Shown piece after piece: positions 23,999 to 62,187 of a stretch of 64,000 nt of DNA. The position numbers were made by a program, and so were the translations under genes. The DNA lies in the NCBI GenBank assembly GCA_903825105.1, contig CAIJZI010000007.1:23178-87177 (forward strand), in the 5' to 3' direction. Position 1 is the first letter of the stretch; every line of letters starts with the position of its first letter. This DNA is from an uncultured bacterium (GTDB lineage Bacteria; Patescibacteriota; Minisyncoccia; Phycocordibacterales; Phycocordibacteraceae). The notes beneath the pieces were generated by a model. It did not search any database. It saw only the letters and a program-made list of their open reading frames with translations, and was not told where the DNA came from.

Positions 23999-24151
23999 AA
24001 CAAAAGCGCAAAGATTCGCCTCGCTTTTGCGTTTTTTCTAGTTCCCGTATGTTTGTACCCCGCATTACTCACTCGTATCTATGCACCTATAATGTACCAA
24101 ACCCCCGATTTTTCTGCAACCCCATGTGGGGATAACGAAATTTGGCACTTT

Positions 24152-24193
24152 GGGAAGGTCAGACCTTCCCACTTGGAAGTTGAACTTCCAAGT
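24152..24193 (-). terminator. twin hairpins downstream of ppa (GGGAAGGTC-AGA-CCTTCCC and CTTGGAAGTTGAACTTCCAAG)
   Basis: seen directly; second hairpin abuts ppa stop codon. Confidence 0.5.
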
Positions 24194-24633: not shown

Positions 24634-24667
24634 ATTTTGAATTATCCCTTGGAAGTCTCCCGAGTTG

Positions 24668-25204: not shown

Positions 25205-25231
25205 AAGTAGATTTTAGCATATAACTTCATC

Positions 25232-25255
25232 CAGTTGGAAGTTTCGCTTCCAAGT
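25232..25255 (-). terminator. CTTGGAAG-family hairpin
   Basis: CAGTTGGAAGTTTCGCTTCCAAGT. Confidence 0.45.
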
Positions 25256-25261
25256 TATTTA

Positions 25262-25431
25262 TAAAAAATACAAAGCCCCATGCAGTCTCTTTCAGGAGAA
25301 ACTACACGGGGCTGATTTGTCCGGCGACTGATACCGGAGGGGCCTATTCAAGGCATTGCTCTTGGACAATAAACTTGGCCTTCGTCTACCGATCAGCTGC
25401 TCCTCTGTGACGAGTGGCGCTAAAAGAGAGG
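25262..25431 (-). ncRNA. candidate structured RNA / highly structured 3' UTR downstream of trmD (unassigned family)
   Basis: ~170 nt with no ORF and at least five stem-loops (e.g. CCGGTATCAGTCGCCGG, AGCCCCG..TGGGGCT followed by U-tract); no family recognised by eye. Confidence 0.2.
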
Positions 25432-33093: not shown

Positions 33094-33779
33094 CAATTCA
33101 TTTTTTTAAGACCTGCTTCGGCGGCGAGCTGTTCGGCTTCTTGCTTACTCTGCCCTTCGCCCCGAGCGATTTCTTTTTCACCAATAAAAACACCGACGGT
33201 AAAGGTGCGTGCATGGTCCGGCCCCACTTCTGAAAGGGTTTCGTAGCGCGGCGTGATGCTCTTCTTTTCTTGTGACAATTCTTGGAATCGACTCTTCGCG
33301 TCCTGGTGTGCACCTTTTGAAATTATTTCGTCAATTTTTATATATACATTTTTTGCAATAAAAGCTTCTGCTTTTTCATATCCAGAATCCAAATAAATCG
33401 CGCCGATAATCGCTTCAAATGCGTCAGCGAGAATCACATCGCGCGCGCGGCCCGTGTCCTTCGACTCGCCTTTTGAAAGCAACATATAATCATTCACGCC
33501 AAGCGCCTTCGCGCTCTCGGCGAGCGACACCGTGTTTACCAAGGCCGCGCGATAGCTCGTGAGCTCGCCTTCTGATTTCGCGGGGAATTTTTTAAAAAGA
33601 AAATCCGTCACGACCAGTTCAAGCACAGCGTCACCGAGGAATTCTAATCGCTCATTATGACTGCCCACATAGTCGCGGTGTTCGTTTAGGTACGAACGAT
33701 GCGTCAAAGCCTCGATGAGAAGGTTTTGATTATTAAATTTGATATTGAGTTCGTTAGAAAATTGAAGAAAATCAGGCAT
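33090..33779 (-). CDS. rnc: ribonuclease III
   Basis: RNase III signature ERLEFLGDAVLELVV, C-terminal dsRBD. Confidence 0.9.
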   Translation of the reverse strand: MPDFLQFSNELNIKFNNQNLLIEALTHRSYLNEHRDYVGSHNERLEFLGDAVLELVVTDFLFKKFPAKSEGELTSYRAALVNTVSLAESAKALGVNDYMLLSKGESKDTGRARDVILADAFEAIIGAIYLDSGYEKAEAFIAKNVYIKIDEIISKGAHQDAKSRFQELSQEKKSITPRYETLSEVGPDHARTFTVGVFIGEKEIARGEGQSKQEAEQLAAEAGLKKMNW

Positions 33780-34719
33780 GTGCGCGTGGGAGCGTAGTCG
33801 TTACATTCGCGTGGTCGAGCAGCTTCTGTACCGCCTCCGTCACGATTGGGAGCATATCATCATAGAAGTTAAGGTCAATGATGTCCTTCAGCCGAAACCA
33901 CTTCGCGTCGTCGAGCCCGCCTTTACCCTGCTGGAGATGGAGCTGCTCGAATTCGGCACGCGCGAGGAAGTAGGTCACATGCTTTCGATACTTCCCCTTC
34001 TCCGGATGCGAAGCGACATACTCGTTTTCGCCGATCTTTCCTTCGAGTTTTATATCGATGCCGATTTCTTCTTTTACTTCGCGAATCGTGCCCTCTTCTG
34101 TAGTCTCGTGCGCGATAGTAGGATTGTCGCCAATCTTACCTTTTGAAAGAGTCCAGTGACCGAAAACATCGTGAACGAGAGCGAGATAATACTGCCCATC
34201 GTGTTTACAATAAACGACCGCGCCGCCGAGTCGCTGTATCGGAATGTCTTCATACTTCACTTTGGTACTCTTCTTTTCTGCCTGCTCATTCTTCCCTGGT
34301 TCGCCGAGCTCTTTGTAGACGGCACCCAAAACGCCGTTGACGAATCTGCCACTCGATTCTCCGCCAAAAGTCTTCGCGAGTTCGATCGCTTCATTAATCG
34401 CCACCTTCGCGGGCACTTGTGTTCGATCGGCGAAAAGGAGCTCGTAGAGCCCGATGCGCAGAATATTTCTATCCACAGGAGCGATGCGCTCCATCGACCA
34501 TTCAGGCGCAGCTTTTTCAATAACTAAATCGATGTCTTCTTTTTTTGATAACACGCCGAGCAGAAGCTTCTCCATAAACGGCCGGTCTGCATCATCACCA
34601 CAAAACTCTTTTACATTTCTTTCGAGAATAATGGCTGAATCTTTTTCTTGTGCATTTGTTGTGTCCCACTCAAAAAGTGTTTGGAGAACAACTGATCGGG
34701 CTAGGTGTCGGTTCGCCAT
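33772..34719 (-). CDS. nusB: NusB antitermination factor fused to C-terminal Nudix hydrolase domain
   Basis: NusB region (..VDRNILRIGLYELLF..AINEAIELAKTFGGESSGRFVNGVLG); Nudix box GKIGDNPTIAHETTEEGTIREVKEEIGI (Gx5Ex7REVxEExGI). Confidence 0.6.
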   Translation of the reverse strand: MANRHLARSVVLQTLFEWDTTNAQEKDSAIILERNVKEFCGDDADRPFMEKLLLGVLSKKEDIDLVIEKAAPEWSMERIAPVDRNILRIGLYELLFADRTQVPAKVAINEAIELAKTFGGESSGRFVNGVLGAVYKELGEPGKNEQAEKKSTKVKYEDIPIQRLGGAVVYCKHDGQYYLALVHDVFGHWTLSKGKIGDNPTIAHETTEEGTIREVKEEIGIDIKLEGKIGENEYVASHPEKGKYRKHVTYFLARAEFEQLHLQQGKGGLDDAKWFRLKDIIDLNFYDDMLPIVTEAVQKLLDHANVTTTLPRAHA

Positions 34720-39403: not shown

Positions 39404-41197
39404 GTGTTATATTCTGAATATATGGCAAAAATCACACCAGAAAACGATCTCGAAATAAGGCGGAAGCATAGTGGCAGCCACATCATGACCGCTGCGGTTC
39501 AGAAGATCTACGGCGATTCAGTCGGCCTCGGCGTAGGCCCGTGGACGGACGAGGGATTCTATCAAGACTTCGACTTCGGCGCGACGACCCTCGCCGAAAA
39601 TGATTTGGCAAAAATAGAAAAAGAAATGGGTGAAATAGTGAAGAAGAATTTGCCGATTATAAAAGTCGAGATGAATGCTGACGAAGCACGCAAGATCTGT
39701 AAAGGTGACCCGTATAAAACGGAGCTGGTTGAAGAGATTATCGCGCGCGGCGATTTAATTAGTTTTTATTATATCGGCGAGTCACTCGACAAAGCGATCA
39801 GCGTGAACCTCTGCGCAGGGCCACACTTAGAAAAAACGGGCGAGCTCGGCGCATTTAAATTGATGCGTATCGCGGGCGCCTACTGGCGCGGAGATGAAAA
39901 AAATAAAATGCTCACGCGCATATACGGCATCGCTTTCCCGACTCAAGAAGAACTTGATGCTTATTTAAAACAGCGCGAAGAAGCAGAAAAAAGAGATCAT
40001 AAAAAAATCGGCAAAGAGATGGGACTCTTCACCGTCTCTGACCTAGTCGGCAAAGGCCTCCCGATGTATCTGCCCAAAGGCAATATTATCCGCACCGAGC
40101 TCGAGAATTTCATTCGCCATGAGAAAGAAGCGCTCGGCTATTCATTCGTCACGATTCCCCACATTGCAAAAAAGGAATTGTATATTCGCTCCGGACATCT
40201 CGGGAAATATGACGCGATGATGCCGATAATGAAAGATGAAAATGGCGAGGAATTTGTCCTCAAAGCAATGAATTGTCCTCACCATTTCGAACTCTATAAT
40301 GCGCAGCCGCATAGCTATAAAGACTTGCCCTTTCGCATCGCAGAAAATACGGTTGTATACAGAAATGAAAAAAGTGGCGAGCTCTCGGGGCTTCTGCGCG
40401 TCAAAGGTCTCTGTCAAGACGACACGCACCATGTCATTCGATTGGACCAAATCGAATCAGAAATAAAAATGATTCATGGGCTGATGCAGAAGGTGTACAG
40501 CATCTTCGGCTTCGATGATTATAAAGTTGAAATATCGATTCGCGATCCAAAAAATAAAGAGAAATATTTCGGCAGTGATGAAGTCTGGCAAAACGCGGAA
40601 AATATTTTGATTGAGCAGGTGAAGACTTGGGGAGTGCCGTTTTCAATCGAAGAAGGTGAAGCGGCATTTTATGGGCCAAAAATTGATATCCGCGTGAAGG
40701 ACTGTATCGGTCGCGAATGGCAGCTCACCACCATTCAGCTCGACTTCAATCAGCCAGAAAACTTCGATATGGATTATACCGGCGAAGACGGCAAGAAGCA
40801 TCGCGTCGTCGTCCTCCATGTCGCCATCTTTGGCTCCTTCGAGAGATTCTTCGGCATTTTAATCGAACACTACGCGGGTGCATTCCCACTCTGGCTCTCG
40901 CCTACCCAAGTAAAAGTCTTGAGCGTTTCTGAAAAGCACGCGGAGTATGCAAAAGAAGTCGTCGGTGAGTTAAAAGCTGCGGGCATTCGCGCCGAGACCG
41001 ATGATTCAAACGAATCACTGGGGAAAAAGATCCGTGCAGGCAAGATGGAAAAAGTTCCCTACCTCCTCGTCGTCGGCGATAAAGAGGTTGAAGCAAAAAC
41101 CGTTTCTGTCGAAAGCCGCGATGCGGGCAAACTCGACATCAATAAATTGGACGACTTCATCGTGCGCGCAAGTGAGGAAATTAAGAATAAGAAATAG
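39404..41197 (+). CDS. thrS: threonyl-tRNA synthetase
   Basis: class II core with zinc site (..CPHHFELY.., ..CQDDTHHV..), C-terminal anticodon-binding domain. Confidence 0.9.
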   Translation: MLYSEYMAKITPENDLEIRRKHSGSHIMTAAVQKIYGDSVGLGVGPWTDEGFYQDFDFGATTLAENDLAKIEKEMGEIVKKNLPIIKVEMNADEARKICKGDPYKTELVEEIIARGDLISFYYIGESLDKAISVNLCAGPHLEKTGELGAFKLMRIAGAYWRGDEKNKMLTRIYGIAFPTQEELDAYLKQREEAEKRDHKKIGKEMGLFTVSDLVGKGLPMYLPKGNIIRTELENFIRHEKEALGYSFVTIPHIAKKELYIRSGHLGKYDAMMPIMKDENGEEFVLKAMNCPHHFELYNAQPHSYKDLPFRIAENTVVYRNEKSGELSGLLRVKGLCQDDTHHVIRLDQIESEIKMIHGLMQKVYSIFGFDDYKVEISIRDPKNKEKYFGSDEVWQNAENILIEQVKTWGVPFSIEEGEAAFYGPKIDIRVKDCIGREWQLTTIQLDFNQPENFDMDYTGEDGKKHRVVVLHVAIFGSFERFFGILIEHYAGAFPLWLSPTQVKVLSVSEKHAEYAKEVVGELKAAGIRAETDDSNESLGKKIRAGKMEKVPYLLVVGDKEVEAKTVSVESRDAGKLDINKLDDFIVRASEEIKNKK

Positions 41198-41263: not shown

Positions 41264-43372
41264 TTACAAATCCACGGTCGCGAGTTTGGCGTTACTTTGA
41301 ATGAAGGATTTGCGCGCGGCGACATCGGTGCCCATAAGAATATCGAAGATGCGGTCTGCCGCTTCGGCGTCGTCAATGCTCACTTGTTTTAGAATTCGTC
41401 GTGCAGGATTCATCGTCGTCTCCCAGAGCTCGCTCGGATTCATTTCGCCCAAACCTTTGTAGCGTTGGACATTTACCTTTGCTGGCTTGGCCGGCTTTGC
41501 GGACTTGCCAGCGTCCTCCGTAGCCTCGGCGGAGGAGGATTCGTTCGTTAATTCATTCAAATCATCCCCTTCACTAACCACCGCGACTTCGTCTGGTGCG
41601 ACGCCAAACTCTTTTAACACTGCATCTTTTTCATTATCAGAATAGGCATACGCCATCGACTTGCCCTTCGTGATTTTATACAGCGGTGGTTGAGCGATAT
41701 AAATAAATCCGCCGTCGATAATCGGTTTAAAATGTCGATAGAGAAGCGTGAGAAGAAGCGTGCGAATGTGCGCGCCATCGACATCGGCGTCAGTCGCGAT
41801 AATAATCTTGTGATAGCGAAGTTTTGAGAGATCGAAGACATCGCCAATCGCGGTGCCCATCGCGACGATGAGGGCGCGGATTTCTATCGAGGCAAGCATC
41901 TTGTCGAGGCGTGCGCGTTCGACATTTAAGATTTTTCCTTTGAGCGGAAGCACCGCCTGCGTGCGGCGGTCTCTGCCCTGTTTCGTCGAGCCACCGGCTG
42001 ACTCTCCTTCTACAATAAAGAGTTCTGCTTCTTCAGCGCTCTTGGTCTGACAGTCAGCGAGCTTGCCAGGCAAGGTCATTCCCTCCAAAGCGCCTTTACG
42101 CAAAACTGAATCCTTCGCGGCTTTTGCCGCCTTACGCGCTTTAAGCGCGAGTAATACTTTATTAATAATCGCGCGCGCATCATCAGGATTTTCTTCGAGG
42201 AAGGTGCCAAGTGCTTCGCCAAAGACGGTCGAGACCGCGCTCTGGGCTTCAACGCTCCCGAGTTTCGCCTTCGTCTGCCCTTCAAATTGAATTTCTGGGA
42301 GCTTTACTGAAATGACTGCTGTGATGCCTTCGAGCACATCGTCACCGGTAAAGTTCTCATCTTTTTCTTTCAAAATGTTTGCATTGCGACCATAAGTATT
42401 AAGCGAGCGTGTGAGTGCTGTTTTAAATCCGGTGACATGCGTGCCGCCTTCGGCATTGTAGGTATTGTTGGCGAAGGCGGTGATGCGTGCTGTGATGTCG
42501 TCGACATATTGAAAGGCGACTTCAACCGCAACATTGTCGATCTCGCGATCGACATAAAAGATATTTTTATGTGCGGGAGTCTGATGACGATTATAGAAAG
42601 CGACGAGCGATTTGAGCCCGCCTTCGAAGTAGAAAGTCATCGACGGACACCCGAGATTTTTCTCACGCAAGAAGACGGTCTCTGTTTCAAATGCTTTTTT
42701 GTCAGAAGTGCGCGCGTCGATTACAGAAATGCGCACACCTTTTACCAAATACGCTTGCTGACGAAGGTGAGAGACGATGCGCTCCAAGTTAAATTCAATT
42801 CCTTCTTTAAAGATTTCTGCATCCGGCTTGAAGAGAACGATGGTGCCATGCTCTTGAGTCGTGCCAATCTTTTTTACGCGTGCAAGTGGCTTGCCGATTT
42901 CATAATCCTGTACATGCATCCCGCCGTCTTGGTGCACCACCACCTTCGTTTCTTTTGAAAGCGCGTTCACCACCGACGCACCGACACCGTGGAGCCCGCC
43001 AGAAACTTTGTACGCATCGTGATCGAACTTACCTCCGGCGTGGAGTGTCGTCATAATCGTCTCGAGCGCAGAGACTTTTGTCTTCGGGTGAATGCCAACG
43101 GGGATACCGTTGCCGTTGTCCGCAACGCGCACGAAGTTGTCTGGGAGAAGAGCGACTTCTATATCGTTACAACGCCCTGCCATCGCTTCATCGCGCGCAT
43201 TGTCGAAGATCTCCCACACGAGGTGGTGGAGACCGTCAGGACCCGTTGTACCGATGTACATCCCGGGGCGTTTACGCACCGGTTCAAGCCCTTCAAGGAC
43301 GGTAATAGAAGAGGCGTCATACGCCTTGGTTTTGGGGTCTTTACCCTGGGGTTTTTGGGCCATTTTAGCCAT
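41264..43372 (-). CDS. gyrB: DNA gyrase subunit B (type IIA topoisomerase ATPase; ParE not excluded)
   Basis: GHKL ATPase (..LHHLVWEIFDNARDEAMAG..), TOPRIM (..EGESAGGS..), C-terminal ..KGLGEMN.. Confidence 0.8.
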   Translation of the reverse strand: MAKMAQKPQGKDPKTKAYDASSITVLEGLEPVRKRPGMYIGTTGPDGLHHLVWEIFDNARDEAMAGRCNDIEVALLPDNFVRVADNGNGIPVGIHPKTKVSALETIMTTLHAGGKFDHDAYKVSGGLHGVGASVVNALSKETKVVVHQDGGMHVQDYEIGKPLARVKKIGTTQEHGTIVLFKPDAEIFKEGIEFNLERIVSHLRQQAYLVKGVRISVIDARTSDKKAFETETVFLREKNLGCPSMTFYFEGGLKSLVAFYNRHQTPAHKNIFYVDREIDNVAVEVAFQYVDDITARITAFANNTYNAEGGTHVTGFKTALTRSLNTYGRNANILKEKDENFTGDDVLEGITAVISVKLPEIQFEGQTKAKLGSVEAQSAVSTVFGEALGTFLEENPDDARAIINKVLLALKARKAAKAAKDSVLRKGALEGMTLPGKLADCQTKSAEEAELFIVEGESAGGSTKQGRDRRTQAVLPLKGKILNVERARLDKMLASIEIRALIVAMGTAIGDVFDLSKLRYHKIIIATDADVDGAHIRTLLLTLLYRHFKPIIDGGFIYIAQPPLYKITKGKSMAYAYSDNEKDAVLKEFGVAPDEVAVVSEGDDLNELTNESSSAEATEDAGKSAKPAKPAKVNVQRYKGLGEMNPSELWETTMNPARRILKQVSIDDAEAADRIFDILMGTDVAARKSFIQSNAKLATVDL

Positions 43373-43421: not shown

Positions 43422-44564
43422 ATGGAGATAAAAATACCGCGAAATGAGGAGAGAGAGCTCCGCGCCAAGCTCGACGCCAGAACCGACGCAGATGCCGCCA
43501 GAATGAAGCGTTATTTGGCGATGCCCGACCTCTCGAGAACGGTCGGCAACCCGCTGTATGAGCTTGTACAGCGCATTGTAGCGATACCGGATTTTAAAAA
43601 GTACGATGTGATAGAAGTGCCAGAAATAATGGACACAAGCATCGTATTCGACCTCTTCGACTTCCCTAAAGATCACCCTGCTCGCTCGACCTCTGATTCG
43701 TATTTCGTTGATGAAAAAAATGTGCTCCGCACCCACACGACCGTGATGTGGTACTACTGGCTTAAACAGGAACAGGTTCGAAAACAGATTGAAGCAGGAG
43801 AAGCAGTCGGCGCACTATCATTTGGAAAAGTGTATAGAAAAGATGAAATCGACCGAAAGCATATGAATGTCTTCCATCAGATTGATGGCTGGTACCTCGC
43901 GCGCAAAGAAGAAAAAATAATTACGATTGAGGATTTGAAAAAAGTGCTCTCTGACATCGCGAAGGCAGCCTTCGGTCCTGAAGTAAAATATCGATTTAAT
44001 GTCGACACATTCCCCTACACTGATCCCTCGCTCGAAATGGAAATCGACAAAGACGGGAACGACACTTGGGTTGAAGTCTTGGGCGCCGGCGTCGTGAAAG
44101 GAAAAGTGCTCGACAATCTTGGCGTTGATTCTTCAGTTTGGAATGGCTGGGCATTCGGCTTCGGGCTCGAGCGACTCGCGATTATCTCGATGGAGCTACC
44201 CGACATCCGCCTTCTCTGGTCAGATGATGAGCGCGTAAAAAAACAACTCGTCTTGGGCCAACATTTTAAAGAAGTGAGTAAGTACCCGCCGGTGGTGCGT
44301 GACATTTCATTTATCGTGAACAACGATTTCGTGCCCAATAACTATTTTGACCTCGTGCGCGATGTCATCGGCGATATGGCTGAGGAGATGGCACTGCTCG
44401 ATAAATATGAAAATGAAGAAAAACTAGGGGCAGGGAAAGTAAGTTATGCCTATCGAATCACCTATCGCAGTGTTAACAAAACGCTCACGAACGAAGAGGT
44501 AAATACACTCCATAAAGAGCTCGAGGAGGCAACGAAGCGCGTTTTTGAGGCGACCATACGATAA
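43422..44564 (+). CDS. pheS: single-chain (mitochondrial-type) phenylalanyl-tRNA synthetase: PheS catalytic core fused to FDX-ACB anticodon-binding domain
   Basis: class II motif 2 ..FPYTDPS.. and motif 3 ..GWAFGFGLERLAII..; C-terminal ~95 aa ..YPPVVRDISFIV..KVSYAYRITYRSVNKTLTNEEVN.. resembles PheT B8/FDX-ACB domain. Confidence 0.6.
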   Translation: MEIKIPRNEERELRAKLDARTDADAARMKRYLAMPDLSRTVGNPLYELVQRIVAIPDFKKYDVIEVPEIMDTSIVFDLFDFPKDHPARSTSDSYFVDEKNVLRTHTTVMWYYWLKQEQVRKQIEAGEAVGALSFGKVYRKDEIDRKHMNVFHQIDGWYLARKEEKIITIEDLKKVLSDIAKAAFGPEVKYRFNVDTFPYTDPSLEMEIDKDGNDTWVEVLGAGVVKGKVLDNLGVDSSVWNGWAFGFGLERLAIISMELPDIRLLWSDDERVKKQLVLGQHFKEVSKYPPVVRDISFIVNNDFVPNNYFDLVRDVIGDMAEEMALLDKYENEEKLGAGKVSYAYRITYRSVNKTLTNEEVNTLHKELEEATKRVFEATIR

Positions 44565-47028: not shown

Positions 47029-47610
47029 CTAGCGCAGAGAGATGCGAGCGAACTGGCTTACTTCTACGCGTTCGCCGAACTTCTGTGTTGCTTCGTTCAC
47101 GAGATCGCGGACCTTCTTTGATTCATCTCGAATAAAAGGCTGATCGAGAAGCACCTGCTCTTGGAAGTAGCTCGCGAGTTTCCCTTCCATAATCTTTTCT
47201 CGCATCTCGACAGGCTTTCCTTCAACTTCTTTTTCAAAAACGGTAACGGCTGCCTGCTTCACTTCTCTTGGAATTTCATCGGCTGTTGTATATTTTGGGC
47301 TGGTCGCTGCGACCTGCATCGCGATCAAGCGCGCGAGTTCTCCGAACTCTGGGTTCTTCGAGACGAAGTCGGTCTCAGTCGAGAGAAGTACCATCGCGCC
47401 GATAACGCCTTCGTGTGTATAGACTCCTATCGTCCCCGCCTTAAGCGTTCTCTCTGCCTTCTTTTCAGCGGCTTCTGCTGAACGCTTCTTGAGAATGACT
47501 TCAGCCTGTGCGAGGTCGCCGTTTGCCTCTTCGAGAGCTTTTTTACACTGCATTACCGACACGCTCGTCTTCTCTCGGAGTTCTTTTATTTGTTCAGTAG
47601 TAATTTCCAT
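47029..47610 (-). CDS. tsf: elongation factor Ts
   Basis: UBA-like N-terminus ..EQIKELREKTSVSVMQCKKALEEANGDLAQA.. Confidence 0.9.
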   Translation of the reverse strand: MEITTEQIKELREKTSVSVMQCKKALEEANGDLAQAEVILKKRSAEAAEKKAERTLKAGTIGVYTHEGVIGAMVLLSTETDFVSKNPEFGELARLIAMQVAATSPKYTTADEIPREVKQAAVTVFEKEVEGKPVEMREKIMEGKLASYFQEQVLLDQPFIRDESKKVRDLVNEATQKFGERVEVSQFARISLR

Positions 47611-47690: not shown

Positions 47691-48389
47691 CTACGATGTT
47701 TGGCCTTTTTTAAATGCTGAAGTAAGTTCAGCGAGAATAAGCTTCACTGTATCGCGAGATGCATCATTCGCGACAATCGGATACTGCGCATCGCGCACAT
47801 CGCAGTCAGAGCTCATAAGAGCGATGACTGGGATACCTGCGTCCTTCGCTTCCTTTACCGCGTATTTCTCGTGTTTCGAGTCAATAACGAGAAGAGCGTC
47901 AGGGCGCTTCGCGAGTGTCGTGATCCCATCGAGGCGCTGCTCGAGTCGTTTCTTCTCGCGATCGAGATACACGAGTTCAAGCTTTGTATGCTGTTTTGCT
48001 CGAATGCCTGCAGCAGACTTTTCAGAGAGTTCTGCGAGACGATCGATACGCTTCTTAATTTCTACCCAGTTCGAGATCGTCCCACCGAGCCAACGAGTCG
48101 CGACATAAGGAGCGGCGATTTCTTGAGCAGCCTTTTTAACCAGGTCGGCTATTTCGACTTTTCCACCAACAAAAAGCACTGTTTTCCCTTCTTTTGCGAG
48201 AGTAGACATTACTGCCTTCGCCGCGTCGAGCTGTTCGGCGGTTTGTACCAAATCGATGATTTCACTGCGGCCCTTGGTACCCATGACAAAAGGCTTCATC
48301 GACGGGTGTCGACGGCTTTTTACCTGCGCGAAATGAGCCCCTGCGCCAAAGAGGTTTTTTAATTCTGCCGAATCAGTTACTGATGTCAT
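47691..48389 (-). CDS. rpsB: 30S ribosomal protein S2
   Basis: conserved S2 N-terminal and central motifs; upstream of tsf. Confidence 0.9.
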
Positions 48390-49189
48390 TCCGATACTTT
48401 ACCTGAATCTTCGAGACTCTGCAACTGTATCTCTTCGATTATGTCGTCGATGCCCCCGGCTACGATCTTCGGCAGATTGTGCCACGACTTCTGTATCCGG
48501 TGATCAGTCACGCGATCTTGGAGGTAGTTATAGGTGCGAATTTTCTCTGACCGGTCTCCGGTGCCTATTTGTGCCTTCCGATTCGCCGCATGCTCCTTAG
48601 CCTCTTTTTCTTCCTGAAGCTGTTCGAGCTTCGCGGAGAGAATCTGCATCGCCTTCTCGCGGTTCGAGAGTTGACTCCGCTCGGAGGACGAGCGTACTTC
48701 GATGCCGGTAGGGATATGGACGAGCCGGACAGCCGTCTCAACCTTGTTCACATTCTGTCCGCCGGCGCCGCCGCTTCTCGAGAATTCCATCTTGAGATCT
48801 GCTGGATTTATTTCCATTTTTGACTTCGTACGAATCGGCAATACGGCAATCGAAGCAGTTGAGGTGTGGACTCTCCCCGATTTTTCGGTAAGGGGCACGC
48901 GTTGGACACGATGTACACCTGTCTCATAACGGAGTGCATCGTATGCGTCGGGGCTAGAAATTTCTATGGTTAAATCGTCGAGAACGCGCGTCTTCCAGCC
49001 GCGGTGTTCGGCATACTTCTGATACATTTCTTTTAAATCTCGTGCGAAGATAGCGGCCTCAGAGCCGCCCGCGCCGGCGCGCAGCTCCATCACCACAGAA
49101 CTCGGACGATCGTCCGATTGCTCTTCTGCTTTACCTTGTGCACCGTATTTTAAATATTCTGCGTAGTCCATATATTTATTAAAGCACAA
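48386..49189 (-). CDS. prfA: class I peptide chain release factor, RF1-like (PxT), short form lacking N-terminal domain 1
   Basis: GGQ ([11 protein letters not shown]), RVQRVPLTE (PxT-type), aligns to E. coli RF1 from ~residue 110; only 267 aa. Confidence 0.7.
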
Positions 49190-49570: not shown

Positions 49571-51760
49571 TTAGAATTCTTGGAATGCAGGGATGATGTT
49601 TACGGTGACTGATTTTACGGCAGTCGTACCTGAATTAGTACTACAGTCAATAGTAAAGGTAGACTGACTATTTATCGTAGCTGTGTACCCACTACTCTTT
49701 GAGAAGTTGCCATTAAAATCAGCGGCCCCGCTCGCGAGTGTGTTACCAGACGAGTCTTTCACCTGACAAGAGCTCACATTAACTGCCTTCCACGAGATTA
49801 TTGATGTCCCGCCACTTTGAACACGCGCAGGATCTGCACTAATCGAAACACTTGGAGAAATAACCGTAACCGTAGCAAAGGCCGGAGTAGAAGTGGCTCC
49901 TTGTGCATTGGCACAAACCACTTGATAATTCTGCGGGCCGACGGTATTCAACTTACCTGTCGAGACATTCCCTGAAGCCGCGCCGCTCGTAGAAAATCCT
50001 GTGCCAGTACAACGCGTCGCACCAGTAGAACTCCAGCGTAGCGTTGTCGAGTAACCCTGATCAACGGTAGAAGAATCTGCAGAAAGCGTCGCGGTCGGGG
50101 CTGGATTGGTACTACAAGCCGGCGGATTCGTCGCTCCATTGTTACAAGTAATTGGCGGGGCACAAAGCGGGTTTGTTGGGCTCCCTCCACAGCCCGTACA
50201 TCCGGTGCCACCGCACGGCGAACAAGTGCCATTCACATATGCTTGATTATTCGGACACTGCGACACGGTAGTACAAGCACTCCCGTCCCAAGTCAGGCCA
50301 GAAGGACAGACGACAGGGCCAACATCCATAGCGACATTAAGCGGTGTACAGCGAGTAGAGAGCGGGCGAGGATCGACTTGTCCATAAATATCAGCGCAGA
50401 AGGCAATGAGGTTTGTCCCTGTAGGCAGACCTCCTGTCGATCCTGTTGGGCTGTATGCATTAATTCGTATTGTTGTGCCCGAATCTACTGTGCTATTAGC
50501 CGCTATTCCAGTAAAATCAGCCATAGCAGACACACCGGTAGAAGGTACTACCGAGTTTAAATCCCAGCTATTTATCCAAGCGTCGCTCGCAGGATCGCCC
50601 TTTTTTAAGACAGGGGGGTAACTAGTTATACCGTTATTTTTACCAACATCTACGAAATAGGCATTTGTGAACGAAGCCTTGGTTTCTACGCCTGAATTGG
50701 TTATTGGTGTTGATAGTTTAAGAGGCTCTCCTGCCGACGGGGCAGTCTGTGCGTATGTCTCTGGCGAGATAATTGATCGAACGAGGTTCATTCCTTTTTC
50801 AAAGAGCTCCGCATACCACGCGAGATGAGATGGCTTATCGAGAACAGCGACATTTTGAGCACTCATAGAACCAACAATAAGAATGGGATATAAAGGATCG
50901 AATTTAATATCGAATTCGGTTGTTGATCCCGCTAATAGAGTCTGTACCAAAGCCGGGTAAACATCAACTGCTAAAGCGGATGGGCCAAAAATATTTTTTA
51001 TAAATGCGAGAATAGGATCTTGTCTAACACTTCTTTCAGAAGGAACGATCTTTATTGAATTTATTGTATAACCTGAAGGGGCTATAATACTTTGTAAGGG
51101 TATGCTATATGGACCCGCTTGTTGATTCGTATAGGTCGTCGAGGTGCCCGTCCCTTGTAGATCGACCATAGTGGTCGTATTTGGTATTGTAGGACCAATA
51201 ATCTCCCATGTGGAACTGACTGGTGCTCCCGTCGCTGAATCTGTCGAGGTGACGACGACCGTACCCGTTGATGGAGTTGGCGTTTGAGCGCGACTTATAG
51301 TGAATGTCTGACTCGTAGAAGATTCGCCATCAGAAACAGTTATTGTATAGGTGCCATTTGACAGAGACGAAACATCTAGATTGAGAGAAAAATTATTTGA
51401 GAAAGGACTGCAGGAACCGCCTGTATTAAATCCATTGCAGTTCATATATTCATTACAACTTTCTCCTGTGCCATCTGTGTTCGTACTCCCCGACAAACTG
51501 CTCGAACCGGTGATATCCCAATCAACCGACATTATTTCTAATGAAAGTTCAGTATATCCTTGCCGTAAACATTTATTGAAATAGACTCCGCTTGTAGTGC
51601 TGCCAGTCGCTGTAAGTGTTGATTGTGTAGAATCTAGCGCGGGACTACTTAAGGTAATGCTCCCGGGCCTATTTTGAGGCAGGGATATTGCATGCGCCAC
51701 TACCGTCGGGATGAAACAAAAAACTGTGGTCAATACTATGATTCCAAAATATTTTTTCAT
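49571..51760 (-). CDS. large secreted Ser/Thr/Gly/Cys-rich surface protein with tandem Ig-like repeats
   Basis: signal peptide; C-terminal ~80-aa repeats (..ATLSADSSTVDQGYSTTLRWSSTG.. / ..VSISADPARVQSGGTSIISWKAVN..). Confidence 0.55.
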   Translation of the reverse strand: MKKYFGIIVLTTVFCFIPTVVAHAISLPQNRPGSITLSSPALDSTQSTLTATGSTTSGVYFNKCLRQGYTELSLEIMSVDWDITGSSSLSGSTNTDGTGESCNEYMNCNGFNTGGSCSPFSNNFSLNLDVSSLSNGTYTITVSDGESSTSQTFTISRAQTPTPSTGTVVVTSTDSATGAPVSSTWEIIGPTIPNTTTMVDLQGTGTSTTYTNQQAGPYSIPLQSIIAPSGYTINSIKIVPSERSVRQDPILAFIKNIFGPSALAVDVYPALVQTLLAGSTTEFDIKFDPLYPILIVGSMSAQNVAVLDKPSHLAWYAELFEKGMNLVRSIISPETYAQTAPSAGEPLKLSTPITNSGVETKASFTNAYFVDVGKNNGITSYPPVLKKGDPASDAWINSWDLNSVVPSTGVSAMADFTGIAANSTVDSGTTIRINAYSPTGSTGGLPTGTNLIAFCADIYGQVDPRPLSTRCTPLNVAMDVGPVVCPSGLTWDGSACTTVSQCPNNQAYVNGTCSPCGGTGCTGCGGSPTNPLCAPPITCNNGATNPPACSTNPAPTATLSADSSTVDQGYSTTLRWSSTGATRCTGTGFSTSGAASGNVSTGKLNTVGPQNYQVVCANAQGATSTPAFATVTVISPSVSISADPARVQSGGTSIISWKAVNVSSCQVKDSSGNTLASGAADFNGNFSKSSGYTATINSQSTFTIDCSTNSGTTAVKSVTVNIIPAFQEF

Positions 51761-52358: not shown

Positions 52359-54149
52359 CTAGCCTTTGCCGCCGATGAGCGGAAAACATGCGGTTCCGTC
52401 AGACGGACAGGCCCAGAAGTCCATACTCCCGCCGTCTGCAGGTACTGCCGGTGCAATTGCGGGGAGGAACGGTATCCCCGGTGTTACCACATTGGCGCTG
52501 CTATCAGAGAGCTTCACTTCCGTGAAGTCCCCGCTATCGTTGCCAATTATGATAACTGTCCCTAAAGCGATCGCGCTGACCGGTTTTTCCCCGGGAGGCA
52601 GTGCGATTACCCCATGGTTGCCGTATGCCGCCACTGGTTTCAAATCGTTCTGACTCAAGACATTGGCGATGTTATCGCCATACGAGATGAGCACGAGGAC
52701 TCCCAAAGAGTCGACTGGGAGGATCTCTGTCCCCTTCGGTGCACCGGCTGTTATGCCGGTGACAGACTGCGACAGAACGAGATTGCAGTTGGTGTCCGAT
52801 TTGGTAAGTGTTAGCCCGCTCGCGTCGAAGACATAGCCGAAGGTATTGCCCCCGACAGTCCCGACACCAAGGGACTGGTTGTTTGTCCCGGCGTTGAGTG
52901 TGTATATCGGATTGGTTGAATTCGGCCCCCCAAGCCAAGAGGTACAGTTTACCGTGTTTTTAGTGATGTACAAAAGTTGGCCATTTCCGGCCTTCACCCC
53001 TACCTTTGTACCAGGATCTCCGCCGCCGCCCATACTAGGGGCGTTAAGAGGGCTCGTGCAGGTAGCGGGATCGATTGGGCTAGGCCCATTCGAAAACCAC
53101 CCCGTCGTACTGTCTGCGGCGATCGCCGCGACCGCGGGCCCAAGGAAGCAGTGCACGCCATTGGGCACTCCTGTTACGGGAGAAAATTCGTCAACATAGC
53201 CCGGCCTTGGTACACCATTGAGCATGTTCTGCCCGGGGATCCTTTCCGCCGAATTCAGCCGAAGCTTTATCCCGGATGGGACAACGACAGCTGGGTTCGG
53301 CCCGTAGAGACCAAACTTAACGGTTGCTGAACACCCGGTCAGATCGGCCGTAAGACAAATCTTGCAGTAACGATTGTCAAAGCCCATATGGCTTTGATCA
53401 AAAGCAAATGCTACCGTCACTTGCGTTGACGAATCCAGCGTAACAGCCATTATGTTGGTGTTTGTTGTACAGCTTAATGTCTGCGAGCCAGCAAATCCTG
53501 ACCCACTAAACACTGCATTCACGGACCCCTGGCCAATGAGCCAGAAAGGTCCGTTGATTGCGGTGAGTGTCGGCGTGACAAGAACCGTCACACTGACCGT
53601 AGCCGTCGTGTAGTTGGCGGTATCCGTCGGGGTGAAGGTCACGCTTTCAGAAACCGATGCTCCGGCGGCGGGGATGGTGCTTGGCGCGGCCCAGGCGAAT
53701 GTGCCCGGCACCGAAGCCACGCCGCCCGAGAGCGTTGACGAGGCGAGTGTTTGACCACTCGTGATCGCCGTCGCAGTCGGGGGCGTCGTAATTGTTGGTG
53801 TTGCTTTGTTTACTGTCAGCTGCACACTTCCACTAGCAGTGTTGTAGTTTGCAGTGTCCGCCGCCGAAGGAGTGAATACCACCGAGAGCGTCTGCGTTCC
53901 CGCCGCGAGCACGGTGCCCGAGGCCGGAGTGTAGACGAAGCTTCCGCCGGCGATGCTCGCTGTCGCGTTCAACTGCGTTGAGCTCAGCGCGATGCCATAG
54001 GTTATGGCGGCCGGCGTAGCCCAGGTGATGGTCGGGGTTGTTTTCGAGGGCGGGGTGTACCCGCCACTAGTCCCTTTACCGCCGCACCCGGAAAGGGTGG
54101 CGGCGAGGAGGACGACGAAGCAAAAAGCAAAAAACCGATTCTTTTTCAT
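52359..54149 (-). CDS. surface lipoprotein with Ig-like/MBG-like repeats
   Basis: lipobox LLAATLSGCGG; repeated ..TPTITWATPAAITYGIALSSTQLNAT..YTP..GTQTLSVVFTPSAADTANY.. units. Confidence 0.5.
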   Translation of the reverse strand: MKKNRFFAFCFVVLLAATLSGCGGKGTSGGYTPPSKTTPTITWATPAAITYGIALSSTQLNATASIAGGSFVYTPASGTVLAAGTQTLSVVFTPSAADTANYNTASGSVQLTVNKATPTITTPPTATAITSGQTLASSTLSGGVASVPGTFAWAAPSTIPAAGASVSESVTFTPTDTANYTTATVSVTVLVTPTLTAINGPFWLIGQGSVNAVFSGSGFAGSQTLSCTTNTNIMAVTLDSSTQVTVAFAFDQSHMGFDNRYCKICLTADLTGCSATVKFGLYGPNPAVVVPSGIKLRLNSAERIPGQNMLNGVPRPGYVDEFSPVTGVPNGVHCFLGPAVAAIAADSTTGWFSNGPSPIDPATCTSPLNAPSMGGGGDPGTKVGVKAGNGQLLYITKNTVNCTSWLGGPNSTNPIYTLNAGTNNQSLGVGTVGGNTFGYVFDASGLTLTKSDTNCNLVLSQSVTGITAGAPKGTEILPVDSLGVLVLISYGDNIANVLSQNDLKPVAAYGNHGVIALPPGEKPVSAIALGTVIIIGNDSGDFTEVKLSDSSANVVTPGIPFLPAIAPAVPADGGSMDFWACPSDGTACFPLIGGKG

Positions 54150-54254
54150 TTTAGTACCCTCTCCTGACACGGTGCTTTACTCGCCACCAATGTCAAAGAA
54201 CTGTTGATTCCCGTTTATTAATATACCCCTTAATACCTCTATTTGTCAAGGCTT

Positions 54255-59537: not shown

Positions 59538-60016
59538 TGAGTTGCGCCGGCAACCATTGCTGCCGTTTCCTGCCGCGAATTACCACTATTGTCCACACAC
59601 CAATATTTCGTATTGTCTGAAACGAGTTGCACCTGAATCGCGTAGGCACTTGTTGAATTATTGCAGGTGACAGTTCCCGAGCCATTTGCAGAGTCTGCCG
59701 CAGCAACAGCCTTCGCGACTGTAGTGTCAACAACAAAGACAGAGCCGGCAACAGCACAAGAGTTGGTCGCTCCAGCGGTACCATAACTATTGTTCCCGCC
59801 GCTTGAATAAAAGATCTCTGCTTGTGTCTGCGCAGAATGCAGGTCTGACTTGATCGCCGCATCACTCCCTTTCGATCTTGCCGTATTAAGAGAAGCAAGC
59901 ACCACGGCGGAGAGAATGCCAATAATGGCGATAACGACGAGTAATTCAATAAGGGTAAACCCAGCACTAACAGTTAGTGCTCGGGTGAAGCCGTTTTTAT
60001 TTATATTATATTTCAT
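59528..60016 (-). CDS. type IV pilin / pseudopilin
   Basis: class III signal/N-methylation motif ..RALTVSAGFTLIELLVVIAIIGIL.. Confidence 0.75.
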   Translation of the reverse strand: MKYNINKNGFTRALTVSAGFTLIELLVVIAIIGILSAVVLASLNTARSKGSDAAIKSDLHSAQTQAEIFYSSGGNNSYGTAGATNSCAVAGSVFVVDTTVAKAVAAADSANGSGTVTCNNSTSAYAIQVQLVSDNTKYWCVDNSGNSRQETAAMVAGATQCI

Positions 60017-60028
60017 AATTATATTGTA

Positions 60029-60892
60029 TCAGATGTAAAGAGCTTTTATAAACTTTTCACCCTCTTCTTTTGCTGGAACTTTCCCGTGCCAACGGTAGTC
60101 ATTTTCTATTTCTGTAACGCCTTTACCAGGGATAGTGCGCGCGACAATAAGCGTGGGCTTATCTTGTACTGATTTTGCCTTTTCAACAGCATCGATAAAA
60201 ATCTGTATGTCATTCCCGTCTATTTCAATCACATGCCAATTAAATGCCCTATATTTATCTGCGAGCGATTCTAACGGCATCACTTTTTCTGTCGTTCCGT
60301 CAATTTGAATATTGTTACGATCTATAATCGCAGTGAGGTTTGATAATTTATTTTTCCCGATGAACATTACTGCCTCCCAGGTATTTCCTTCTTCCTGCTC
60401 GCCATCGCTCATCACGCAGTACACCCTCCGCCCATGTTTGGACTTCGTAAATCCATCATCAGATGATGGATTTACGAAGTCCCTCAATACAAGTGCCATT
60501 CCTGCTGCTTGTGAGAGACCTTCGCCCAAAGGGCCAGAGGTAGTTTCGAGACCTGGTAATCGAATGCGCTCTGGATGCCCTTGCAGCCTGCTGCCAAATT
60601 TTCTTAAAGTTAAACATTCTTCAACAGGAAAATAGCCTGCGTGTGCCATAGCCGCATAAAGAACAGGACAAATGTGCCCATTACTTAAAACAAGCCGATC
60701 GCGCTCCTCCCACTCTGGGTTTTTTGGATCATGTTTCAGAATGTGAAAATAAAGAGCGGTAAAAATATCTGCCATGCCAAGCGCGCCTGCAGTGTGCCCG
60801 CTCCCCGCTTCAACAAGCATTCTGATAATCGTCTCGCGAATCATGCGCGCCTTTTCTTTGAGCGCGGTGATTTCTTCTTCAGTACATTTCAT
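60029..60892 (-). CDS. tktA: transketolase, N-terminal subunit (split enzyme) with in-frame palindromic-element insertion
   Basis: TPP-binding ..GSGHTAGALG.., ..SDGEQEEG..; 17-aa insert RDFVNPSSDDGFTKSKH encoded by palindrome 60440-60482. Confidence 0.85.
   Translation of the reverse strand: MKCTEEEITALKEKARMIRETIIRMLVEAGSGHTAGALGMADIFTALYFHILKHDPKNPEWEERDRLVLSNGHICPVLYAAMAHAGYFPVEECLTLRKFGSRLQGHPERIRLPGLETTSGPLGEGLSQAAGMALVLRDFVNPSSDDGFTKSKHGRRVYCVMSDGEQEEGNTWEAVMFIGKNKLSNLTAIIDRNNIQIDGTTEKVMPLESLADKYRAFNWHVIEIDGNDIQIFIDAVEKAKSVQDKPTLIVARTIPGKGVTEIENDYRWHGKVPAKEEGEKFIKALYI
60440..60482. repeat. palindromic element family A inside tktA coding sequence (perfect 43-bp palindrome)
   Basis: GGACTTCGTAAATCC-ATCATCAGATGAT-GGATTTACGAAGTCC, preceded by CATGTTTGG. 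Confidence 0.85.
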
Positions 60893-60906
60893 CTTCTTAT
60901 TGTACC

Positions 60907-61644
60907 TTATACACCATACGGGCTCTCGAGATTTTCGAATACTGCGAATGCCTCAAGCGGGTCTGTCGCGCGTAAGATGCCTGATCCTATAACCAAATTT
61001 GATACGCCAAGCGCAACAAGTTTTTTAGCGGTATCAAAAGAAATCCCGCCATCAATCTGTAAAGGGATCTTTGGGTGCCGTTCGCGAAAAATGCGCACCT
61101 TTTCTAAAACGCGTGTATCAAATGGCTGTCCCTGTTTACCGATTTGTGCGATGCCCATAAACTGTACAAAATCTATTTCGCCTAGACACTGCTCGATGAG
61201 TGCGAGTTTACTTTCTATATTAAGAGCAAGCCCGAAAGAAATCATAGATGAAAATCCGTTCGCGCCAAACTTCTTCCGTGCCGAAGAAAGAAGCTTTGAC
61301 ACATCACTGACTGATTCGGCGTGAAATAAAATGCGTGTCGCTCCGGACTCTATCCAAGAGTGCGCGACCTGTTCTGGATCAAAACACATCAGATCAATTT
61401 CATATTCTATTCTATCAAGATTGGGTAACATTGCCCCATCTTGCATCATCATTTCAAGTTCTGTTTGACTGCCTTTCGCAGCTTCAGGAGATACGTTGTA
61501 GGGCCAAGTTGGTGGTAATGCAAATTTGCCGTCGACGACATCAATCTGCACACGATTAACTGAAGAGATCTGTGAGAAAAGCGCAAGCTCTTCCTCAAAT
61601 TCTTTTTTTGAGTAGGGAAGGACGGCCGGTATAACAAGGCCCAT
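60907..61644 (-). CDS. rpe: ribulose-phosphate 3-epimerase-like TIM-barrel protein
   Basis: ..IDVVDGKFA.. and ..IDGGIS.. parallel Rpe motifs; assignment by similarity pattern only. Confidence 0.6.
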   Translation of the reverse strand: MGLVIPAVLPYSKKEFEEELALFSQISSVNRVQIDVVDGKFALPPTWPYNVSPEAAKGSQTELEMMMQDGAMLPNLDRIEYEIDLMCFDPEQVAHSWIESGATRILFHAESVSDVSKLLSSARKKFGANGFSSMISFGLALNIESKLALIEQCLGEIDFVQFMGIAQIGKQGQPFDTRVLEKVRIFRERHPKIPLQIDGGISFDTAKKLVALGVSNLVIGSGILRATDPLEAFAVFENLESPYGV

Positions 61645-61686
61645 TCGTATAGTATAGAACGAAAAATCGTTAATAATATGCTTTTC

Positions 61687-62187
61687 CTACAAGCCCTGTG
61701 CGTTCGTAGTATATACCGCACAAGCAGAAGTCGATCGGTTAGGATCGCCAAGTCCACTACCCGCTTCGGTACTTCCATAACACGCTAGTGAAGACGGGCA
61801 GTTATAGAACATATATTTATAATCAGCTCCGCCAATAGGGCTGTCATAGGCATAGCAACAGAGAGAACCTCCATCTGTTTGAGAATCAAGAGGAAGTTGT
61901 TTAATGTAATTAGGGACAAGTCCTGGTATCGCACCATTTTGTGTCGTTTGTGTACCGAGAGTTGAGCAGGCGCTATACCAAACACCATTGGTACTTGGAT
62001 ATTTACCCCCATTATCATTCGCATACATCTCAATCGCCATTTGTACGGATCGAAGATTTGAAACACGCTGTGCGTCATACCCCTTCACGCGAGCAGAGTT
62101 AATCGAAACAATCACAACCGAAGACAATACGCTAATGATTGATATAACGACGAGCAACTCTATCATTGTGAAGCCACGATTTTTCAT
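61687..62187 (-). CDS. type IV pilin / pseudopilin
   Basis: ..KNRGFTMIELLVVISIISVL.. Confidence 0.7.
   Translation of the reverse strand: MKNRGFTMIELLVVISIISVLSSVVIVSINSARVKGYDAQRVSNLRSVQMAIEMYANDNGGKYPSTNGVWYSACSTLGTQTTQNGAIPGLVPNYIKQLPLDSQTDGGSLCCYAYDSPIGGADYKYMFYNCPSSLACYGSTEAGSGLGDPNRSTSACAVYTTNAQGL

What the first reader, a model, noticed from the sequence alone, without database searches (positions are those of the whole stretch)
43422..44564. Single-chain mitochondrial-type PheRS in a bacterium
The 380-aa protein has PheS motifs 2 and 3 followed by a ~95-aa FDX-ACB-like anticodon-binding domain that is normally found at the C-terminus of PheT. This is the architecture of monomeric mitochondrial PheRS. 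No pheT follows in the window, whereas the canonical bacterial enzyme is an alpha2beta2 heterotetramer with a beta-subunit editing domain. If pheT is absent genome-wide, the organism would lack PheRS editing.
Basis: partly seen in the sequence, partly recalled or inferred. Interest (0 to 1): 0.55.

Follow-up and report, generated by a model that had tools for sequence, protein, structure and literature searches.

The report
Mitochondrial-type one-chain PheRS in Patescibacteria
This gene encodes a complete phenylalanyl-tRNA synthetase in one 380-residue chain, built like the enzyme of human mitochondria and conserved across a large group of ultra-small bacteria, which probably load tRNA-Phe without the usual proofreading subunit.

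Summary
ORF 43422..44564 (+) encodes 380 aa with a PheS class II core (res 43-275) and an FDX-ACB anticodon-binding domain (res 286-380). Human mitochondrial PheRS is the best match in sequence and predicted fold (TM 0.73 over both domains). All ATP, Phe-pocket and GAA-anticodon contact residues are present and at least 93% conserved (most invariant) in 192 orthologues; both domains are under strong purifying selection; composition is native.

The gene is not a one-off. The scan found 134 GTDB species representatives of Patescibacteria, class Paceibacteria/Minisyncoccia, including a closed 721-kb genome, in a conserved dnaE-thrS-gyrB-PheRS-tsf-rpsB neighbourhood. Related one-chain enzymes occur on huge-phage and giant-virus contigs and in eukaryotic organelles. 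The NCBIfam family SrmL is a separate, degenerate, defence-island branch.

No pheT or second pheS lies in the window or within 10 kb of the gene in 80 species. My control shows those flanks are syntenic, so genome-wide absence of pheT is not demonstrated. One related genome with canonical pheS-pheT shows no one-chain gene in its published annotation table.

Best reading: the housekeeping, probably sole, editing-free PheRS of this lineage. New member of a known kind; I found no paper describing it.

The parts
43422..44564 (+). Single-chain PheRS gene (380 aa plus stop)
   Evidence: ORF; Pfam; PDB; 192 orthologues of 370-390 aa with the same start region
43422..43553 (+). N-terminal helical segment, res 1-44: two short helices. 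The long coiled-coil arm and Phe_tRNA-synt_N domain of canonical PheS are absent.
   Evidence: AlphaFold secondary structure, helices 8-19 and 23-33; no PF02912 hit, whereas canonical PheS P0269 has it; R27, L37, S38, R39 and P44 invariant within the Kaiserbacteria-level set
43548..44246 (+). Class II catalytic core (res 43-275). Contains motif 2 R139 and F151-H152-Q153-x-D155, the Phe pocket F197-P198-Y199-T200 and A244, and motif 3 R251.
   Evidence: Pfam tRNA-synt_2d E 4.7e-56. Residue mapping against the T. thermophilus, E. coli and human residues given in PMC3275996. Invariant or near-invariant (at least 93%) in 192 orthologues.
44277..44561 (+). FDX-ACB (B8-type) anticodon-binding domain (res 286-380), with D294, D327, Y329 and C-terminal R380
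   Evidence: Pfam FDX-ACB E 8.8e-22. Alignment to the E. coli PheT C-terminus. These are the equivalents of Tt beta-Asp696, Asp729, Tyr731 and Arg780, which contact G34-A36 (PMC8136816). At least 99% conserved in 192 orthologues.
39404..41197 (+). thrS, part of the conserved neighbourhood (context only)
   Evidence: Pfam tRNA_SAD + tRNA-synt_2b + HGTP_anticodon; a homologue lies within 10 kb of the PheRS gene in 35 of 80 species
41264..43372 (-). gyrB, immediate neighbour (context only)
   Evidence: Translation; a homologue lies within 10 kb of the PheRS gene in 62 of 80 species

Best explanation
The gene encodes the housekeeping phenylalanyl-tRNA synthetase of this Kaiserbacteria-like Patescibacterium, in the one-chain form so far described for mitochondria. 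The catalytic core binds ATP and Phe and forms Phe-AMP. The fused C-terminal FDX-ACB domain reads the GAA anticodon of tRNA-Phe: Y329 stacks on G34, and D327 and R380 hydrogen-bond to it. As in the human mitochondrial enzyme, the anticodon domain probably swings from a closed to an open position when tRNA binds. Because the B3/B4 editing domain of the beta subunit is missing from the enzyme, Tyr-tRNA-Phe and m-Tyr-tRNA-Phe cannot be cleared in cis. Shown here: architecture, fold, presence and conservation of every functional residue, purifying selection, lineage-wide distribution, housekeeping synteny, native composition. Inferred: enzymatic activity, monomeric state, the closed-to-open movement, and that it is the only PheRS in the cell (I put that at about 0.8).
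For: Two-domain architecture. Best sequence and fold matches are human mtPheRS over both domains, from a confident model (pLDDT 92.5, pTM 0.87); the model resembles the closed crystal form (TM 0.73) more than the tRNA-bound open form 3tup (TM 0.59). All catalytic, Phe-pocket and anticodon-contact residues are present and at least 93% conserved (most invariant) in 192 orthologues (residue roles from PMC3275996 and PMC8136816). pN is 0.07-0.26 against saturated pS of 0.78-0.92 in both domains. 134 GTDB species representatives of Patescibacteria were found using only query-specific peptide patterns, including closed genome CP174359.1. The neighbourhood is conserved and made of housekeeping genes. 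Codon usage is native. There is one pheS-like gene per locus and no pheT within 10 kb in 80 species. A Paceibacterales MAG with canonical pheT-pheS shows PF03147 and PF01409 only once each in its annotation table, so no extra one-chain gene appears there. Genomes of about 0.7 Mb rarely keep redundant synthetases (general knowledge).
Against: Genome-wide absence of pheT and canonical pheS was not shown. My control shows that the 80 flanks resample the same syntenic neighbourhood: rpoB, rpoC, dnaG and rpoD were found in 0 of 80. So the lack of pheT there says little about the rest of the genome. The protein scores below the curated cut-offs of all three NCBIfam PheRS-type models (pheS_mito 231 vs 258; pheS 168 vs 237; SrmL 241 vs 300), and NCBI annotates it as a hypothetical protein. 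Y199 replaces the second Phe of the FPF pair and D155 replaces the usual Glu; both changes are conservative but untested. No tRNA-Phe gene was available to check identity elements. No biochemistry exists.
Confidence: 0.8

Rival explanations
1. It is an accessory paralogue. The genome also has canonical pheS-pheT elsewhere, and this one-chain enzyme is a second, editing-free PheRS, for example for stress conditions, resistance to a PheRS inhibitor, or supplying Phe-tRNA to a non-ribosomal process.
For: Genome-wide absence of pheT is untested, and the flanks are uninformative about it. Canonical pheS-pheT does exist within the same class, in Paceibacterales MAG PMX_810_sub. One-chain relatives also occur in an Oligoflexia MAG, in a non-translation context; I expect that group to have the canonical enzyme, but that was not tested here.
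Against: Conservation is class-wide, with near-invariant functional residues and omega well below 0.15. The synteny is fixed and made of housekeeping genes. The genomes are very small. The one canonical-type genome examined shows no one-chain gene in its annotation table, which suggests replacement, not coexistence.
Confidence: 0.12
2. It is a member or functional analogue of the NCBIfam family 'PheS-related mystery ligase SrmL' (NF051887): a PheS-derived ligase with a substrate other than tRNA-Phe.
For: SrmL is the top-scoring NCBIfam model (241 bits). SrmL proteins have the same core + FDX-ACB-like layout and group loosely with the bacterial one-chain clade in the NJ tree (54% bootstrap).
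Against: The score is below the curated cut-off of 300, whereas a true member (P0205) scores 402. SrmL sequences form their own clade with 100% bootstrap. They have lost FHQ (IHH), the first pocket Phe (HPY) and the G34-stacking aromatic; two of the three lack the C-terminal Arg; and they carry an insertion in the FDX-ACB domain. The query keeps all of these residues. The one SrmL locus examined sits next to a reverse transcriptase, a PLD-type nuclease and two ~740-aa unknown proteins, not housekeeping genes.
Confidence: 0.03
3. It still works as the alpha part of a multi-subunit enzyme, with a reduced, separately encoded beta-like partner.
For: In 15 of 80 species (the Doudnabacteria-labelled lineage) a 113-212-aa stand-alone PheT-B2-type tRNA-binding protein is encoded immediately upstream. 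In L078 its stop overlaps the PheRS start.
Against: No such gene lies in this 64-kb window or next to the gene in the other 65 species. The B2 family is narrow, with only 158 candidates in 5.8 billion clusters. Human mtPheRS works alone with the same two domains (PMC3275996).
Confidence: 0.05

Closest known systems
Mitochondrial/organellar monomeric PheRS (human FARS2, yeast Msf1; 'PheRS-M' in AARS Online; TIGR00469 pheS_mito; PDB 3CMQ, 3TUP)
   Same: Same two-domain chain: alpha-type catalytic module plus a B8/FDX-ACB anticodon domain, with no editing domain. Best sequence and fold match. Same Thr at the pocket position where bacteria have Val (T200 = human Thr235). Same G34-contact residues. 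The nearest 50%-identity representative, P0121, passes the TIGR00469 cut-off.
   Different: Encoded in a bacterial chromosome, with no targeting peptide. It lacks the ~30-60-residue insertion after motif 2 that eukaryotic sequences carry. It has its own ~10-residue segment after the LRTHTT motif. Y199 replaces the second pocket Phe. It scores 231, below the model's cut-off of 258. It falls in a separate bacterial clade, not inside the eukaryotic one.
Canonical bacterial (alpha-beta)2 PheRS (PheS/PheT; TIGR00468/TIGR00472; PDB 3PCO, 1PYS)
   Same: The catalytic core is homologous to PheS (33% identity to E. coli PheS over 234 residues). The C-terminal domain is homologous to PheT B8. Same Phe-pocket logic and same anticodon contacts.
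   Different: One chain instead of two. No PheS N-terminal coiled-coil. None of PheT domains B1-B7, so no B3/B4 editing site.
One-chain PheRS on huge-phage and giant-virus contigs
   Same: Same architecture, 338-375 aa, covering the query to residue 380. Several pass the pheS_mito cut-off.
   Different: 33-41% identity. They group with the eukaryotic sequences and not with the bacterial clade (66% bootstrap). They lie on contigs of up to 1.47 Mb classed as viral by IMG/VR.
SrmL, 'PheS-related mystery ligase' (NCBIfam NF051887)
   Same: PheS-like core plus an FDX-ACB-like C-terminus in a single chain; it is the top NCBIfam hit.
   Different: See the membership test: cut-off not met, functional residues differ, context differs.

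Membership tests
Monomeric (mitochondrial-type) PheRS, 'PheRS-M' | Single polypeptide with a PheS-type class II catalytic module followed by a C-terminal B8/FDX-ACB domain, and no beta-subunit domains | tested here: met
   Pfam tRNA-synt_2d 43-275 + FDX-ACB 286-380, nothing else
Monomeric (mitochondrial-type) PheRS, 'PheRS-M' | Three-dimensional arrangement like human mtPheRS | tested here: met
   AlphaFold pLDDT 92.5; Foldseek top 7 hits are all human mtPheRS, TM 0.72-0.73 for the closed forms over ~390 columns. This is a predicted structure, not an experimental one.
Monomeric (mitochondrial-type) PheRS, 'PheRS-M' | Curated equivalog score (TIGR00469, cut-off 258.35 bits) | tested here: not met
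   231.2 bits. Close relative P0121 scores 264.3 and passes. The model was built from eukaryotic sequences.
Monomeric (mitochondrial-type) PheRS, 'PheRS-M' | Phe-specific pocket, class II ATP motifs and GAA-anticodon contacts intact | tested here: met
   R139, FHQ151-153, F197/Y199/T200, A244, R251, D294, D327, Y329, R380
Monomeric (mitochondrial-type) PheRS, 'PheRS-M' | Active as a monomer and charges tRNA-Phe without a beta subunit | not testable with these tools
   Needs biochemistry
Monomeric (mitochondrial-type) PheRS, 'PheRS-M' | It is the only PheRS of its translation compartment (no PheT present) | tested here: inconclusive
   No pheT in the 64-kb window or in +/-10 kb in 80 species, but the flanks are syntenic. 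The whole closed genome could not be read.
Canonical bacterial PheS (TIGR00468) | Equivalog score of at least 237.45 and an N-terminal Phe_tRNA-synt_N coiled-coil domain | tested here: not met
   168.2 bits; no PF02912 hit
SrmL (NF051887) | Equivalog score of at least 300 | tested here: not met
   241.2 bits, against 402.1 for true member P0205
SrmL (NF051887) | SrmL-type sequence signature (IHH for FHQ, HPY for FPF, loss of the G34-stacking aromatic, insertion in the C-terminal domain) and clade membership | tested here: not met
   The query keeps the PheRS residues. SrmL forms a separate clade with 100% bootstrap. These signature features are my own observation from 3 sequences, not a published definition.

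The most novel reading that the evidence does not exclude
A large part of the bacterial class Paceibacteria/Minisyncoccia has replaced the universal heterotetrameric PheRS with a one-chain enzyme as its only PheRS, and so decodes Phe with no cis-editing. The one-chain architecture is then not a mitochondrial invention but an older prokaryote/virus-borne form, from whose pool the mitochondrial enzyme was recruited.
Probability: 0.25. Interest if true: 0.8.

Novelty: new member of a known kind. Interest (0 to 1): 0.58.

Why it matters
Monomeric PheRS is treated in the reviews I read as a mitochondrial speciality, and its origin (a chimera of bacterial alpha core and beta B8 domain) is unexplained. 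The enzyme turns out to be conserved across a whole class of bacteria, and also in huge phages and giant viruses. That makes the origin question testable by phylogeny and biochemistry. It would also provide a natural set of bacteria that probably live without PheRS editing against Tyr and m-Tyr, which bears on how much translational fidelity minimal cells need. On the practical side, NCBI currently labels these proteins 'hypothetical', and the pheS and pheT marker models (TIGR00468/TIGR00472) do not reach their cut-offs on them. Genome-completeness and phylogenomic pipelines that rely on those models would therefore score both genes as missing in this lineage.

Tried and rejected
1. Genome-wide test for pheT. 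I could not read whole genomes. I spent the single genome-contig scan on the PheRS itself before I knew a closed genome existed. Screening the flanks was negative, but my control showed it is uninformative.

2. Getting a CPR PheT seed sequence. P0269, the canonical PheS most similar to the query, came from a diderm bacterium with no adjacent pheT. A degenerate DNA pattern for the PheT B5 motif found only E. coli fragments in viral contigs. The search with the B2 protein returned only stand-alone B2 proteins.

3. Literature. Ten searches found no paper on a bacterial or phage monomeric PheRS or on SrmL. The AARS Online paper lists PheRS-M only with the human FARS2 gene and structure 3CMQ.

4. 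Supplementary tables. Those of five Patescibacteria papers held no pheS/pheT data for a genome carrying the one-chain gene. The two that did have such data covered a canonical-type genome.

5. Long N-terminal extensions on some representatives do not contain PheT domains; they are AlaRS core, TACO1 or methyltransferase fusions, or carry no recognised domain.

6. Promoter and terminator scans around the gene gave no more hits than shuffled sequence.

7. Recent horizontal acquisition was rejected: composition is native, synteny is conserved and the bacterial clade is separate.

Full report
OBSERVATION. Pfam finds a PheRS-type class II core (tRNA-synt_2d, residues 43-275, E 4.7e-56) and a full-length FDX-ACB domain (residues 286-380, E 8.8e-22). 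The C-terminal part also aligns to positions 698-798 of the bacterial PheT model and to the C-termini of solved PheT chains. No pheT or second pheS lies in the 64-kb window. None of the ten ORFs I scanned (>=417 aa) has PheT domains. tblastn with E. coli PheT finds nothing, and E. coli PheS hits only this ORF.

WHAT THE PROTEIN LOOKS LIKE. The best solved relatives by sequence are the human mitochondrial PheRS entries (E 2e-57, both domains aligned). Canonical alpha subunits match only the core. An AlphaFold model built on 54 orthologues is confident (pLDDT 92.5, pTM 0.87). Its seven best Foldseek matches in the PDB are all human mitochondrial PheRS. TM is 0.72-0.73 over about 390 columns for the closed crystal forms and 0.59 for the tRNA-bound open form; canonical alpha subunits reach TMq of about 0.54.

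I took residue roles from two structural papers and mapped them onto the query:
- From PMC3275996: the aromatic pair Phe258/Phe260, Val261 (Thr235 in the human mitochondrial enzyme) and Ala314 (E. coli Ala294).
- From PMC8136816: the B8 contacts to the anticodon, namely Tt beta-Asp696, Asp729, Tyr731 (stacks on G34) and Arg780.

The query has motif 2 R139 and F151-H152-Q153, the pocket F197-P198-Y199-T200 and A244, motif 3 R251, and the anticodon contacts D294, D327, Y329 and the C-terminal R380. In 192 orthologues these positions are invariant or nearly so; the least conserved, H105, is 93%. Against eight orthologues of 67-85% identity, synonymous sites are saturated (pS 0.78-0.92) while pN is 0.07-0.26, in both the core and the FDX-ACB domain. 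Base composition and codon usage are like those of neighbouring genes.

WHERE IT OCCURS. Names attached to close homologues point to Candidatus Kaiserbacteria, within Patescibacteria/CPR. The single scan of GTDB species representatives used only six octapeptides taken from the query, yet found 134 species. The best 80 (57-85% identity) carry NCBI labels Kaiser-, Nomura-, Zambryski-, Doudna-, Yanofsky- and Wildermuthbacteria, Paceibacterota and Minisyncoccia. They include a closed genome (CP174359.1, 'UBA2163', 721,362 bp) and a 914-kb contig.

The neighbourhood is conserved and made of housekeeping genes. gyrB lies within 10 kb in 62 of 80 species, thrS in 35, tsf and rpsB in 25 each, and dnaE in 19.

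An exhaustive phmmer search of 1.84 billion cluster representatives found only 228 with E<=1e-30, and nearly all of the best 150 are one-chain proteins. They fall into four groups:
- The bacterial clade, which also includes a few non-Paceibacteria members such as an Oligoflexia MAG protein.
- Compact proteins of 338-375 aa. At least one lies on a 341-kb phage-like contig, and 34 IMG/VR contigs of up to 1.47 Mb, some labelled as giant-virus MAGs, encode the same architecture.
- Longer eukaryotic organellar enzymes with an insertion after motif 2 (S. osmophilus Msf1, Branchiostoma, Salpingoeca, a fern).
- SrmL.

In a bootstrapped neighbour-joining tree of the core, Paceibacteria plus P0121 form a clade (99%) and other bacterial forms join it (83%). 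SrmL is its own clade (100%). Eukaryotic, viral and compact sequences form the other side (66%). The method is crude and the root rests on two canonical PheS sequences. It does argue against a recent transfer from eukaryotes into these bacteria.

THE SrmL RIVAL. The top NCBIfam model is 'PheS-related mystery ligase SrmL', but at 241 bits against a cut-off of 300. A true member scores 402. SrmL sequences have IHH for FHQ and HPY for FPF, have lost the G34-stacking aromatic, carry an insertion in the C-terminal domain, and two of the three lack the C-terminal Arg. The one SrmL locus I examined lies beside a reverse transcriptase, a PLD-type nuclease and two unknown proteins of about 740 aa. The window's protein is not an SrmL.

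IS IT THE ONLY PheRS? This is the crux, and I could not settle it. tblastn with E. coli PheT and PheS against 1.26 Mb of flanks from 80 species found only the central gene and no B3/4, B5 or B6/7 region. My control undercuts that result: only window genes within about 12 kb of the PheRS gene recur in those flanks, and rpoB, rpoC, dnaG and rpoD never do. The flanks therefore resample one syntenic block and say little about the rest of each genome.

The indirect evidence favours replacement:
- Conservation is class-wide, with near-invariant functional residues.
- The genomes are very small, about 0.7 Mb for the closed one.
- Published annotation tables for a Paceibacterales MAG (PMX_810_sub) list an adjacent canonical pheT (B3/4, CLM, B5, FDX-ACB) and pheS. 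In the held copy of that table, FDX-ACB and the PheS core each occur only once, so no one-chain gene appears in it (PMC9600506 and PMC10936435 supplements).

Both forms therefore exist within the class and look like alternatives. I estimate 0.8 that the one-chain enzyme is the sole PheRS in this organism.

MECHANISM. Shown: the enzyme has everything the human mitochondrial enzyme uses and nothing else. Inferred from that homologue (PMC3275996): it activates Phe, transfers it to tRNA-Phe selected through G34-A36 by the fused B8 domain, and needs a hinge movement of that domain on tRNA binding. Lacking B3/B4, it cannot hydrolyse Tyr-tRNA-Phe. The review states that the mitochondrial enzyme stably attaches Tyr to tRNA-Phe.

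PRIOR KNOWLEDGE. I found no paper on a bacterial or phage monomeric PheRS (ten searches). AARS Online lists PheRS-M only with FARS2. Viral PheRS grouping with organellar ones has been reported (PMC11304981). Databases disagree on the name: NCBI says 'hypothetical protein', even in the closed genome; UniRef says 'phenylalanine--tRNA ligase'; JGI says 'alpha chain'; a 2015 submitter label says 'Phenylalanine-tRNA synthetase-like protein'.

VERDICT. This is a new member of a known kind (monomeric PheRS) in an unexpected host range. The key open point, absence of pheT genome-wide, can be settled by one HMM search of a closed genome.

Noticed in passing
L078:9592-9999 (+), L094:9363-9794 (+), and 13 further loci (L059, L061, L070, L073, L080, L084, L085, L092, L099, L105, L111, L114, L122): In the Doudnabacteria-labelled lineage a stand-alone tRNA-binding OB-domain protein (135-143 aa in the two loci read) sits directly upstream of the one-chain PheRS gene. 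In L078 its stop overlaps the PheRS start. It scores best against the B2 region of the PheT model (94-106 bits, above YtpR). The family is small (158 candidates, 113-212 aa) and JGI labels it 'PheRS beta chain'. It may be a trans-acting 'mini-beta'. It is not present in the window.
   Followed up: yes
L005:605-9741: A true SrmL ('PheS-related mystery ligase', 402 bits) is followed by two ~740-aa proteins with no Pfam hit, an RVT_1 reverse transcriptase, a 564-aa unknown protein and a PLDc_2 nuclease-like protein. This layout looks like a defence island or retron, which may hint at what SrmL does.
   Followed up: partly
L007 (341-kb contig), L009-L042 (IMG/VR contigs up to 1.47 Mb): One-chain PheRS genes (core + FDX-ACB, 33-41% identical to the query) occur on 34 contigs classed as viral, many of 200-536 kb and some labelled as giant-virus MAGs. 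Several compact representatives pass the mitochondrial PheRS model's cut-off.
   Followed up: partly
L006:10001-11245 (Oligoflexia MAG JAIBBV010000034.1): A 414-aa one-chain PheRS-like protein lies outside Patescibacteria, in a non-translation neighbourhood. It keeps FPF, FHQ and the anticodon contacts. Whether it coexists with canonical pheS-pheT is unknown.
   Followed up: partly
window 49571-51760 (-) and 52359-54170 (-): Two large ORFs (729 and 603 aa) have no Pfam hit, no homologue in the 80 related loci, and codon usage unlike the rest of the window (r 0.28 and 0.39; GC3 0.38 and 0.62). They may be lineage-specific surface proteins or acquired genes.
   Followed up: no
window 33772-34719 (-): A single 315-aa ORF combines a NusB domain (res 7-136) with a NUDIX hydrolase domain (res 174-284). 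Homologues lie near the PheRS gene in 9 of 80 related species.
   Followed up: no
window 48386-49189 (-), 47029-47610 (-), 39404-41197 (+): Several translation proteins are shortened. The release factor is 267 aa, with only the C-terminal part of the PCRF domain. EF-Ts is 193 aa. ThrRS is 597 aa, has a GTG start and shows no TGS domain hit.
   Followed up: no
window 24001-26000 and 60001-62000: Local dips in G+C (0.42-0.44 against about 0.49 for the window).
   Followed up: no
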